This document shows, in pieces, positions 57,173-59,152 of a DNA stretch of 64,000 bases (its first letter is position 1; each line of letters begins with the position of its first letter). The notes below the pieces were generated by a model. It was not told the DNA's origin, made no database searches, and saw only the letters and a list, made by a program, of their open reading frames with translations. Source of the DNA: Alphaproteobacteria bacterium (lineage in GTDB: Bacteria; Pseudomonadota; Alphaproteobacteria; Rickettsiales; Deianiraeaceae); the NCBI GenBank assembly GCA_025363115.1, contig JANYEN010000031.1:5608-69607 (forward strand). The letters are read 5' to 3'. The position numbers were made by a program, and so were the translations under genes.

Positions 57173-59152
57173 TTAGCTACTTGCCAAAAAATTAAACGAA
57201 AGCAAACAACCAGTTTTGCCAACTTTATTGGAATTTACATAAGTAATGGAAGAAGGATTGGAAACCAATGCGGTAGTTGCATTGTTACACCAAGTTGAGT
57301 CAATTGCATTATTTGATCCACCAAAACTTCCCGATGTTTTATCCCATCCTTTGGTGCCTAAAATTTGTCCAGTTAATGGCAAGCCATCATCAAATTTTAT
57401 ATCGATTTTTTGTGCTAAGCTAGAAGGTAATGAAGCAAAAGAGGGCAAAGAATTGACAGTTAATGGATGGGGTGGAATATTAGGAAAAATAAAACAATAC
57501 CCTCCACTACATCCACATATAGTGGGATCAGAGCAATAACATTGAATATTACTGCAACTGCAACCTGAATTACTGCCTAAATTACCACTTTGGCAATTAC
57601 AATTGTTGTTATAACATGCTGTTGTGTTTTGCAATGAGGAAACTGATGCCGAAGTTGAGTTTGCTATGCTTGTAATTGTATTCATGCTGGCAATAGTTGG
57701 TGGCCATGCAAGGCTTGCTGCGTAACATAAATCATAGGCATAATAAGCAGCACTGTATATTGCAAGTGCACTAACAGTGGCAAGTGAATTAGGGTTTATA
57801 CTGTAAGCTGCAATATAATTATTATATGCTGTCGCAGCTTGACCAGTCCAATAAGACGGAGCTCCATTAATATTTTGTATGGCAAGATAGTTAGAAGTCA
57901 TTAATGCTCCGACATAGTCTGCATATGCTATTTGGGTAGCCAACGATCCTGAATTGGCGTTATATGCAATATTATAATTAGAAAGCATAGTAGCCAAATT
58001 ATTACTGGCGGTAGAAGAGGTAGTGTTATTTTTCATTTGATTAGCAATTGTAAGAGCTGCATATTGCTGATAACCTATAGAGGTAGCAGAACTATTGGGA
58101 TTATTCGCAAATGCCGTGTTGTAATTAGCTAAAGCGTTACTTGTAAGAGTGCCTAAATTAGCAGGTGCACCATTATAATAATCCATATTGTATGGTGCCG
58201 AATACGCAGCTTGATAATTGAGTGCGGCTAATTGGGTAGATTCTAGATATTGGCGAGGATCAGTTGCTAAAGCCGTTTGGTACGCAGTTAAGTTATTGGA
58301 AATTATTGCTTGAAGACTGCTCGGACTTATATATTGCTGTTCTTTGTATGCACTTAACATGGCTTGATAATATTGTGCATTTGAAGTGGCCACAGTTGTA
58401 CTCAATATTTGAAGATTATTTAAAGCTATAGCGCTATTAATGCCAAATAAACTATTAATATTTGCATAATAACTAGCCCCCTTTGCACCAAATAGAGTTA
58501 TAACAATATCGCCAGGATTTAAATTAGGACCATAAATAACAACATTTGGATCAATAATTATTTGAGGAACCGTGGCATAATGAATACCAATAGTTTTGTC
58601 AGAACTGCTAAAAGGCAACGAAACACCAACATCATTTGAAATATCTAAAGTTTGGGCGGTGTTGATTGGGGCAGTGTTAGTCAATAAACTGCATTGTGCA
58701 GGAGTTGCAATATTTTGATTGCTAGTAAGACCAGTTTTGCCACCAATTAATCCAGCGAGCAACATTTGTCTAAAGCCATCACGAGAATCACATCCGGTAA
58801 CTATTCCATCGTTTATAGCAGTAAAATTAGTGCCAAGACTAGTGCTGGGGTCTCCTTGATTATAACGATAAATTGCTTTTTCGGCACCACTGCCATTTAG
58901 TTGCTGGATAGACACATCTCCAGGTAAAGCATCGTATAAATTATAAAAGCTGGTTATAGCTTTTTTATAATACATAAAATCTTGATAAAATGAGTTAGTT
59001 TTTGAAGATGTAATCAGTTGTTTGCCAAATAAAATTACCGATAATACAATTGATATTATTACTATAGAAATAGATAATTCAATTATAGAAAAGGATTTTT
59101 TAGTAATTTTTATGTTTTTATGTGCTCTAATATATATAAATATATTAGTCAT
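57173..59152 (-). CDS. giant type IV pilin / pseudopilin-like protein with repeat-rich and Cys-rich insertion
   Basis: 659 aa. The N-terminus ...KKS/FSIIELSISIVIISIVLSVILF has prepilin-type hydrophobic helix with Glu5, but Ser rather than Gly at -1. The pilin-body strings are FYNLYDALPGDV and a C-terminal KIDIKFDDGLPLTGQILG. Four repeats of about 45 aa, rich in Ala/Tyr/Asn, cover aa 255-480. There are 10 Cys between aa 513 and 553. Confidence 0.65.
   Translation of the reverse strand: MTNIFIYIRAHKNIKITKKSFSIIELSISIVIISIVLSVILFGKQLITSSKTNSFYQDFMYYKKAITSFYNLYDALPGDVSIQQLNGSGAEKAIYRYNQGDPSTSLGTNFTAINDGIVTGCDSRDGFRQMLLAGLIGGKTGLTSNQNIATPAQCSLLTNTAPINTAQTLDISNDVGVSLPFSSSDKTIGIHYATVPQIIIDPNVVIYGPNLNPGDIVITLFGAKGASYYANINSLFGINSAIALNNLQILSTTVATSNAQYYQAMLSAYKEQQYISPSSLQAIISNNLTAYQTALATDPRQYLESTQLAALNYQAAYSAPYNMDYYNGAPANLGTLTSNALANYNTAFANNPNSSATSIGYQQYAALTIANQMKNNTTSSTASNNLATMLSNYNIAYNANSGSLATQIAYADYVGALMTSNYLAIQNINGAPSYWTGQAATAYNNYIAAYSINPNSLATVSALAIYSAAYYAYDLCYAASLAWPPTIASMNTITSIANSTSASVSSLQNTTACYNNNCNCQSGNLGSNSGCSCSNIQCYCSDPTICGCSGGYCFIFPNIPPHPLTVNSLPSFASLPSSLAQKIDIKFDDGLPLTGQILGTKGWDKTSGSFGGSNNAIDSTWCNNATTALVSNPSSITYVNSNKVGKTGCLLSFNFLASS

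What the first reader, a model, noticed from the sequence alone, without database searches (positions are those of the whole stretch)
57173..59152. 659-aa pilin-like protein with a ~450-aa repeat and Cys-knot insertion and an atypical cleavage site
The N-terminus is a prepilin-type helix (FSIIELSISIVIISIV with Glu at +5) preceded by a 20-residue basic leader. The residue before Phe is Ser rather than the near-invariant Gly. The start (FYNLYDALPGDV) and the end (KIDIKFDDGLPLTGQILG...C...C) look like a normal small pseudopilin body. Between them are four Ala/Tyr/Asn-rich repeats of about 45 aa (N.LA.Y.TA...NP.S.AT...Y..Y.A), encoded at 57713-58390. These are followed by a stretch with 10 Cys in 41 residues (CYNNNCNCQSG...CSCSNIQCYCSDPTICGCSGGYC), encoded at 57494-57619. 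No pilus assembly or prepilin peptidase gene is in the window. The gene abuts the tRNA-Ile/island junction.
Basis: partly seen in the sequence, partly recalled or inferred. Interest (0 to 1): 0.65.

Follow-up and report, generated by a model that had tools for sequence, protein, structure and literature searches.

The report
Oversized type IV pilin with insert
This gene encodes an unusually large member of a big, uncurated family of type IV pilin-like proteins from Rickettsiales-like bacteria, with a 340-residue lineage-specific repeat and cysteine-rich segment inserted in a surface loop; it is an interesting but not unprecedented variant of a known kind of protein.

Summary
The 659-aa ORF (57173-59152, minus strand) is real, and most details of the observation hold. 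By homology it is a type IV pilin-class protein. HMMER finds 3,997 relatives, mostly 230-330 aa, that share its N-terminal helix (F21, E25, LPGD) and its C-terminal DxKxDDGxPxxG...C...C motif. Of 80 relatives, 75 match Pfam N_methyl, and the family profile matches Neisseria PilE. Relatives lie almost only in MAGs labelled Rickettsiales or Alphaproteobacteria. They often form tandem arrays of up to 12 genes, and some sit beside PilB/GspE-type ATPases. Ser at -1 breaks the textbook Gly/Ala rule but recurs in the family (G 85, A 43, S 19 of 150). The real insertion is about 342 aa (residues 229-570), not about 450. It holds three significant repeats of about 50 aa plus one marginal repeat, then 10 Cys in 41 residues. 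It has no homologue anywhere, and a paralogue in the same genome carries an unrelated insert. "Cys-knot" is unsupported. Best reading: a modular minor pilin that displays a fast-evolving adhesive or antigenic module, with the module inserted in the pilin head as in GspK. I could not check whether this genome encodes pilus machinery. Interest is moderate to low.

The parts
57173..59152 (-). Whole ORF, 659 aa plus stop: a type IV pilin-class protein with an internal insertion
   Evidence: The same protein is encoded 100% identically in GCA_043762065.1 contig 87 and in two Logan assemblies.
59093..59152 (-). Putative leader peptide, residues 1-20 (MTNIFIYIRAHKNIKITKKS), basic at its end and finishing in Ser
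   Evidence: The paralogue keeps KKS|F. The family -1 residue is G, A or S. The true start codon and the cleavage are not verified.
58934..59092 (-). Alpha-1 helix, residues 21-73, with F21 (+1) and E25 (+5): the hydrophobic N-half plus the amphipathic C-half
   Evidence: AF2 gives helix 23-73 with pLDDT above 90. The family profile aligns this stretch to Neisseria PilE residues 1-108. N_methyl hits residues 19-40.
58469..58933 (-). First half of the globular head, residues 74-228: the LPGD motif, the Cys121/Cys154 pair, helix 119-132, and strands 188-194 and 216-222
   Evidence: 56% identity to paralogue P0001 over residues 18-244. The region is conserved in P0002, P0005 and P0017. Model.
57443..58468 (-). 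Lineage-specific insertion, residues 229-570 (342 aa), placed between strand 2 and the helix that precedes strand 3
   Evidence: Absent from typical family members of 230-330 aa. Unrelated to the insert of the paralogue. No homologue among 5.8 billion proteins. pLDDT below 50.
57698..58303 (-). Ala/Tyr/Asn-rich repeats R1-R4 (residues 284-334, 335-382, 383-434, 435-485), predicted helical
   Evidence: R2, R3 and R4 resemble each other at z = 4.2-5.3 against shuffles; R1 is marginal. The helices in the model are low confidence.
57494..57616 (-). Cys-rich segment, residues 513-553: 10 Cys, four of the pairs as CxC
   Evidence: 0 of 100,000 shuffles. Cys-rich stretches recur in the inserts of other large family members: L009, P0001, P0014, P0019 and P0050.
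57173..57442 (-). Second half of the pilin head, residues 571-659: the KIDIKFDDGLPLTGQI motif, strands 597-601 and 648-655, and the Cys622/Cys649 pair (D-region-like)
   Evidence: 53% identity to the paralogue. These columns are at least 90% conserved. pLDDT is 80-96.

Best explanation
The gene encodes a modular subunit of a type 4 filament (a type IV pilus or T2SS-like pseudopilus) in an AT-rich, Rickettsiales-like alphaproteobacterium.

Proposed mechanism:
1. The class III-type signal inserts the protein in the inner membrane. This is inferred from homology.
2. A prepilin peptidase that tolerates small residues (G, A or S) at -1 cuts between Ser20 and Phe21. This is inferred.
3. The alpha-1 helix with Glu5 lets a PilB/GspE-type ATPase incorporate the subunit into a filament, probably as a low-abundance or tip subunit because of its bulk. 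This is inferred.
4. [quoted passage not shown] It consists of helical Ala/Tyr/Asn repeats followed by a disulfide-rich 41-aa segment. The position of the insertion is shown by alignment and by the model.
5. The insert is an orphan and is completely different in the paralogue and in the nearest homologues. It is therefore most likely a fast-evolving adhesive or antigenic module for contact with a eukaryotic host or a surface. This is inferred.
For: - Family size: 3,997 relatives at E <= 1e-3. Most match in two stretches, N (residues 17-85) and C (574-653).
- Curated pilin models: 75 of 80 relatives match PF07963, 69 of 80 match TIGR02532, and many hit the N-terminal parts of the GspG, GspH and PpdD models.
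- Solved structures: the family profile matches type IVa pilins, with PilE 5kua at E = 8.7e-8 over alpha-1 and the PGD motif.
- Conserved positions: E25, F21, F69, P77, G78, D79 and the C-terminal Cys pair are near-invariant.
- Structure model: AF2 of the insert-deleted construct gives pLDDT 77 and pTM 0.80, with a 51-residue alpha-1 plus a four-stranded head. The only long Foldseek alignments are to type IV pilins (CofA, C. difficile PilA1), but they are not significant.
- Genomic context in relatives: tandem arrays of 7-12 family genes; operon-like adjacency to T2SSE or T2SSE+MshEN ATPases in L037, L041, L075 and L083; and a T2SSE gene next to the subclade member P0158.
- Literature: type IV pilus components are reported in basal Rickettsiales and the DDG clade, and are proposed to mediate attachment in Deianiraea (PMC10847448).
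- Insert variability: the paralogue's insert is unrelated. L009 carries six Cys-rich repeats at the same place. A homologue shows a 14-aa repeat indel between strains.
- Precedents: modular pilins, and the alpha-domain that GspK carries inserted in the pilin beta-sheet (PMC8179133).
Against: - No pilus, T2SS or prepilin peptidase gene is in the window. I could not inspect the rest of this genome, and three guesses at its PilB landed in other organisms.
- This protein's own N_methyl score is below Pfam's threshold.
- Ser at -1 and a 20-residue, partly hydrophobic leader are outside the canonical definition (PMC10191384).
- Foldseek matches are not significant.
- The insert model is low confidence, so nothing is known about what it binds.
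- No experimental data exist for any member of this family.
Confidence: 0.6

Rival explanations
1. It is a pilin-derived protein that is no longer assembled. The N-terminal helix would serve as an uncleaved signal anchor, and the protein would sit in the inner membrane with its head and insert in the periplasm. This would be a relic or a re-purposed pilin in a reduced genome that has lost the filament machinery.
For: - Ser at -1, a long leader and a sub-threshold N_methyl score.
- No machinery in 64 kb.
- Both paralogues are isolated among housekeeping genes.
- Type IV pilus genes have been lost many times in crown Rickettsiales (PMC10847448).
- Hepatincola-type reduced symbionts lack type IV pili (PMC9992710).
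Against: - Glu5, Phe1 and the KKS|F junction are conserved between paralogues that are only 56% identical.
- Ser at -1 recurs in 13% of family representatives.
- In relatives, G and A forms sit side by side in the same arrays, some of which lie next to assembly ATPases. Ser forms were seen in other loci.
- The machinery genes of relatives are also scattered among housekeeping genes, so their absence from one window means little.
Confidence: 0.22
2. It is a T2SS tip pseudopilin of the GspK type. It would cap a short periplasmic pseudopilus that drives protein secretion, rather than being displayed on an extracellular pilus.
For: - Family members hit the NCBIfam GspG and GspH models.
- The associated ATPases are named GspE/PulE family by the sources.
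- GspK also has a helical domain inserted in the pilin beta-sheet (PMC8179133).
- The literature treats type IV pili and T2SS together for Rickettsiales.
Against: - The GspG and GspH hits most likely rest on the shared N-terminal helix; the matched regions were not reported.
- No GspK model or any other T2SS-specific model is hit.
- The best PDB matches are type IVa major pilins.
- Arrays of 7-12 paralogous pilins are not a T2SS feature.
- A hypervariable orphan insert fits surface exposure better than a periplasmic cap.
Confidence: 0.13
3. The long ORF is an annotation artefact or a decaying gene. It could be a fusion of a pilin with junk low-complexity sequence, on its way to being split or lost.
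For: - The closest homologue (L009) is split into two ORFs by a double stop codon.
- The insert is compositionally biased (Ala 19%, Asn 13%, Ser 11%, Tyr 11%).
- AF2 confidence for the insert is low.
Against: - The 1,980-nt frame is uninterrupted in a 29% GC genome, where stop codons are frequent.
- Both flanking pilin halves are conserved in frame.
- The sequence is identical in three independent assemblies.
- The repeats and the Cys cluster are non-random.
Confidence: 0.05

Closest known systems
Type IVa pilins such as Neisseria PilE (PDB 5kua, 2hi2), and the generic class [quoted passage not shown] (PF07963 / TIGR02532)
   Same: - N-terminal class III-like signal with Phe+1 and Glu+5.
- An alpha-1 helix of about 50 residues followed by an (L/W)PGD turn. 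The family profile aligns with PilE residues 1-108.
- A C-terminal Cys pair, like the D-region.
- Sources give relatives this generic name.
   Different: - It is four times larger than these pilins.
- The -1 residue is Ser.
- The leader is 20 aa.
- The head has its own conserved DxKxDDGxPxxG motif, which matches no solved structure or curated domain.
- It carries a 342-aa internal insert.
Modular type IV pilins: Streptococcus sanguinis PilB (vWA module) and PilC (lectin module), and ETEC CofB (Raynaud et al. 2021, PMC8179133)
   Same: A pilin module carries a bulky extra module, presumably for display by the filament. These pilins are predicted to be tip-located or low in abundance, with a role in adhesion.
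   Different: In those proteins the module is appended to the C-terminus through a linker and is usually a recognisable domain. Here the module is inserted inside the pilin fold and is an orphan with no detectable family.
GspK/EpsK minor pseudopilin of the T2SS
   Same: [quoted passage not shown] The insertion topology is comparable.
   Different: There is no sequence similarity to the GspK models. The insert is longer, repetitive and Cys-rich. GspK lacks Glu5 (my own knowledge), whereas this protein keeps it.
The uncurated Rickettsiales/alphaproteobacterial pilin family defined here by P0003-P0150 (typically 250-330 aa, with the DxKxDDG motif)
   Same: It shares the N- and C-terminal motifs, the C-terminal Cys pair and the G/A/S usage at -1. 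The subclade with the GCDSRDGFRQM motif (P0001, P0002/L009, P0005, P0017) is the closest.
   Different: At 659 aa it is far longer than the family median of 265 aa and 95th percentile of 365 aa. The insert sequence is unique.

Membership tests
Type IV pilin / type 4 filament subunit | The leader peptide is hydrophilic and ends in Gly or Ala (Pelicic 2023, PMC10191384) | tested here: not met
   The leader ends in Ser20 and is 20 aa long with a hydrophobic IFIYI patch. However, Ser at -1 is found in 19 of 150 family representatives and 9 of 119 genomic ORFs.
Type IV pilin / type 4 filament subunit | About 20-25 hydrophobic residues follow the cleavage site, with Glu at +5 | tested here: met
   The sequence is FSIIELSISIVIISIVLSVILF. 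E25 is invariant and F21 is at least 90% conserved in 80 relatives.
Type IV pilin / type 4 filament subunit | A match to PF07963 (N_methyl) or TIGR02532 at the curated cut-off | tested here: not met
   The protein scores 16.8 bits against a cut-off of 21.2, and 10.3 against 16.3. Relatives do match: 75 of 80 and 69 of 80 at E <= 0.01.
Type IV pilin / type 4 filament subunit | Lollipop fold: a long alpha-1 helix packed against an antiparallel beta-sheet head | tested here: inconclusive
   The AF2 insert-deleted model has pTM 0.80, with helix 23-73 and four strands. The top Foldseek hits are pilins but not significant (best E = 0.22). The sequence profile hits PilE significantly over alpha-1 and the start of the alpha-beta loop.
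Type IV pilin / type 4 filament subunit | A C-terminal disulfide-bonded region (typical of type IVa pilins of diderm bacteria) | tested here: met
   Cys622 and Cys649 are conserved in at least 90% of the family. The disulfide bond itself is not verified.
Type IV pilin / type 4 filament subunit | Cleavage and N-methylation by a prepilin peptidase | not testable with these tools
   This needs the mature N-terminus by mass spectrometry, or co-expression with the cognate peptidase.
Type IV pilin / type 4 filament subunit | Assembly machinery (PilB/GspE, PilC/GspF, PilD, secretin) encoded in the same genome | not testable with these tools
   None is in the window. Relatives have T2SSE+MshEN ATPases beside family pilins.
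Modular pilins (Raynaud et al. 2021) | A pilin module plus an extra module corresponding to a domain not specific to type IV pilus biology | tested here: inconclusive
   An extra 342-aa segment is present, but it matches no Pfam, NCBIfam or PDB entry and no other protein. It is inserted rather than appended.
GspK-type minor pseudopilin | Sequence membership in the GspK family, with an alpha-domain inserted in the pilin beta-sheet | tested here: not met
   No GspK model is hit by this protein or by 80 relatives. Only the insertion topology is alike.
Cystine-knot domains | A recognisable knottin or cystine-knot signature, or a confident knotted three-disulfide fold | tested here: not met
   There is no family hit. 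The region has 10 Cys with CxC spacing, and pLDDT is below 50.

The most novel reading that the evidence does not exclude
The protein could be the host-contact adhesin of a type IV pilus in an uncultured Rickettsiales-like symbiont. On this reading it belongs to a pilin family, largely confined to alphaproteobacterial MAGs, whose cognate prepilin peptidase routinely accepts Ser as well as Ala and Gly at -1. That would extend the accepted Gly/Ala rule. The family would diversify by inserting orphan, rapidly evolving repeat and Cys-rich modules into different loops of the pilin head. In one lineage the pilin is even stably split into two ORFs, the second with its own Sec signal.
Probability: 0.25. 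Interest if true: 0.55.

Novelty: new variant of a known kind. Interest (0 to 1): 0.35.

Why it matters
If the reading is right, this is a candidate surface adhesin or antigen for a poorly known group of host-associated alphaproteobacteria in which pili are proposed to mediate attachment.

- It adds a case of module insertion inside the pilin fold. Until now that has been known mainly from GspK.
- It gives a natural set of Ser(-1) prepilins for testing the substrate range of prepilin peptidases.
- It points to a large pilin family, with thousands of members and arrays of up to 12 genes, whose head domain has no curated model or solved structure.

Tried and rejected
- **PDB sequence search, full protein:** only chance hits to ORC4.
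- **Foldseek on the full-length model:** nothing, because the model is dominated by the low-confidence insert.
- **Foldseek on the insert-deleted model:** pilins come top, but not significantly.
- **Search with the insert alone against 5.8 billion proteins:** no hit.
- **DNA tandem-repeat search:** none in the gene.
- **Promoter and terminator scan:** no more sites than in shuffled sequence.
- **First genome-contig scan, using patterns from the two paralogues:** no relatives, so the species is not in that collection.
- **Literature search for the assembly and run accessions:** nothing.
- **Locating this genome's PilB:** I searched with a relative's ATPase and looked up three NCBI-only candidates (P0246, P0259, P0265). 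All came from other symbionts in eukaryote assemblies.
- **Regex for the GxGD(V)K motif of prepilin peptidases in 1.1 Mb of related loci:** none found.
- **Contexts of P0002, P0003 and P0005:** the contigs were too short to be informative.
- **Rejected idea, that the pilin gene is part of the tRNA-Ile island:** it lies on the 5' side of the tRNA. Its nearest homologue (L009) also has infC upstream in the same orientation, although at about 9 kb instead of about 2.6 kb.

Full report
**1. The observation**

The ORF at 57173..59152 on the minus strand is the longest in its region and encodes 659 aa.
- The N-terminus is MTNIFIYIRAHKNIKITKKS|FSIIELSISIVIISIVLSVILF.
- Cysteines lie at 121, 154, 476, ten positions between 513 and 553, 622 and 649.
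- The cluster of 10 Cys in 41 residues was never reached in 100,000 shuffles. Its spacing is Cx4CxCx10CxCx4CxCx5CxCx4C.
- Among the Ala/Tyr/Asn-rich repeats, residues 335-382, 383-434 and 435-485 are significantly related to each other (z = 4.2-5.3, 0 of 300 shuffles). Residues 284-334 are only marginally related.
- There is no nucleotide-level tandem repeat.
- tRNA-Ile(gat) lies 61 nt downstream on the same strand.
- All other ORFs of at least 120 aa in the window are housekeeping genes of a Gram-negative bacterium. They include Skp, YidC, LspA, MurJ, FtsQ, DnaK, ClpB, IF-2, IF-3, a trp operon and a GTA-like portal. None is a pilus, T2SS or prepilin peptidase gene.

**2. What it is**

A word-indexed search of 5.8 billion proteins found a single close relative, P0001 (504 aa).
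- P0001 is encoded on another contig of the same assembly (GCA_043762065.1), so it is a paralogue.
- The two proteins share residues 18-244 at 56% identity and 570-658 at 53% identity. Their middles are unrelated.

An exhaustive HMMER search of 1.84 billion cluster representatives gave 3,997 hits at E <= 1e-3.
- Nearly all are 230-330 aa and match in two stretches, the N-terminus (about 17-85) and the C-terminus (about 574-653).
- In an 80-sequence alignment, E25, F69 and G78 are invariant. F21, P77, D79, P180, D584, K586, D588, D589, G590, G595, C622, Y638 and C649 are at least 90% conserved.
- Of the 80 members, 75 match Pfam N_methyl and 69 match TIGR02532. No curated model covers the head.
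- The family profile matches solved type IVa pilins. Neisseria PilE scores E = 8.7e-8 over alpha-1 and the following PGD turn.
- Sources call members [quoted passage not shown] or "hypothetical protein".

**3. Where the family lives**

A scan of one genome per GTDB species found 151 relatives. The 79 loci kept are almost all MAGs labelled Rickettsiales or Alphaproteobacteria, often with several loci per MAG.
- Some loci hold tandem arrays: 12 family genes in 10.7 kb (L053), 9 (L012) and 7 (L037).
- Family pilins lie next to T2SSE ATPases in L037, L041, L075 and L083. The ATPases of L075 and L083 also carry an MshEN domain, so they are PilB/GspE-type.
- The subclade member P0158 has a 326-aa T2SSE gene as its neighbour.
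- The ATPase forms a large clade, which sources name GspE/PulE or PilB. In several symbiont contigs from eukaryote assemblies it sits in a conserved gltX-pilB-apaG-tsaB neighbourhood.
- Castelli et al. 2024 report type IV pilus components in basal Rickettsiales and the DDG clade, and propose pili for attachment in Deianiraea.
- Housekeeping proteins of the window are 60-67% identical to those of the MAG that holds the best pilin homologue (L009, L010). In L009, infC lies upstream of the pilin as in the window, which gives partial synteny.

**4. The cleavage site**

The textbook statement is that leaders end in Gly or Ala (PMC10191384), so Ser20 is outside the canon. Within this family, however, the -1 residue is G85/A43/S19 among the top 150 representatives. 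It is A74/G36/S9 among 119 ORFs in genomic loci. G and A forms are intermixed in the same arrays, and the paralogue keeps KKS|F. The simplest inference is that the cognate peptidase accepts small residues in general. This is untested.

**5. The insertion**

AF2 on the full protein gives confident alpha-1 (residues 23-73) and confident N- and C-terminal head segments. pLDDT is below 50 for residues 226-570, which are helical in the repeat zone and coil in the Cys zone.
- An insert-deleted construct (residues 1-228 plus 567-659) modelled with 128 family sequences gives pLDDT 77 and pTM 0.80. Its order is alpha-1, helix 119-132, strands 188-194 and 216-222, then helix 577-587 and strands 597-601 and 649-654 in native numbering.
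- The insert therefore sits between strand 2 and the helix that carries the KIDxKxDDG motif.
- In typical members this linker is a short variable stretch.
- Other large members (P0014, P0019, P0050) carry inserts at a different loop, so insertions arose independently.
- The insert alone has no homologue.
- L009 carries six Cys-rich repeats of about 38 aa at the equivalent place. A homologue differs between strains by a 14-aa repeat indel just before the C-terminal half.
- Family lengths have a median of 265 aa and a 95th percentile of 365 aa.

**6. Mechanism and rivals**

- **Best explanation (0.6):** a modular minor subunit of a type 4 filament that displays a fast-evolving module. This is analogous to modular pilins and, in its topology, to GspK (PMC8179133).
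- **Rival (0.22):** an unprocessed, membrane-anchored relic in a genome without the machinery.
- **Rival (0.13):** a T2SS tip pseudopilin.
- **Rival (0.05):** a decaying gene.

The decisive unknown is whether this genome encodes PilD, PilB and PilC. I could not reach the rest of the genome.

**7. Novelty**

The protein belongs to a known kind, the type IV pilin class. It is an unusual variant because of its internal orphan insert, its Ser at -1 and its large uncurated family. It is not categorically new. "Cys-knot" and "~450-aa insertion" should be dropped.

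Noticed in passing
window 50812-57111: A 60-nt inverted repeat (51456-51515 and 56936-56995, 90% complementary) brackets two features: a frameshifted IS1595 transposase (51481-51885 and 52056-52415) and a 1107-aa ORF with leucine-rich-repeat-looking repeats (by eye) and a trypsin-like domain (53554-56877). The segment ends about 40 nt from tRNA-Ile. A 24-nt copy (92% identical) of the tRNA-Ile anticodon arm lies at 50812-50835, and a 21-nt copy of the region upstream of the tRNA lies at 50868-50888. 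Two independent Logan contigs stop at 57050, inside the tRNA. This looks like an IS-bounded island at tRNA-Ile. The pilin gene lies outside it.
   Followed up: partly
L009 10001-12432: The nearest homologue is split into two ORFs by TAA TAA. The first is a 214-aa pilin N-half. The second is 581 aa and has its own Sec-type signal (…SIINSANA|SS), six Cys-rich repeats of about 38 aa, and the pilin C-half. The 214-aa ORF recurs in 7 of the 8 cluster members, drawn from several metagenomes, so the split looks stable rather than an assembly error.
   Followed up: partly
L053 1-10711; L012 8256-18829; L037 45-16402: Tandem arrays of 12, 9 and 7 paralogous family pilin genes occur in Rickettsiales or Alphaproteobacteria MAGs, with Gly and Ala at -1 mixed within an array. 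L037 ends in a T2SSE ATPase gene.
   Followed up: partly
L066 5293-9078: A 1261-aa ORF carries both family motifs. It is an even larger modular member than the window protein.
   Followed up: no
P0005 vs P0159 (L006 802-2352): Two versions of a 516-aa subclade homologue are identical except for a 14-aa indel in an S/T/P-rich tandem repeat immediately before the C-terminal pilin half. This is strain-level variation in repeat number.
   Followed up: yes
L075 910-5313; L087-L093: A conserved gltX, pilB-like ATPase (T2SSE+MshEN), apaG, tsaB neighbourhood occurs in a Rickettsia-labelled MAG (L075). It also occurs in contigs that carry bacterial housekeeping genes within very large, probably eukaryotic, genome assemblies.
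   Followed up: partly
window 25253-26431: An ORF matches Phage_portal strongly (E = 1e-85) among housekeeping genes. It may be part of a gene-transfer-agent-like cluster, as in other Alphaproteobacteria.
   Followed up: no
window 8740-14767: An apparently complete tryptophan biosynthesis cluster is present: trpA, trpB, trpF, trpC, trpD and a fused trpE-G. The genome here is 29% GC and IS-bearing, and otherwise looks like that of a reduced symbiont.
   Followed up: no
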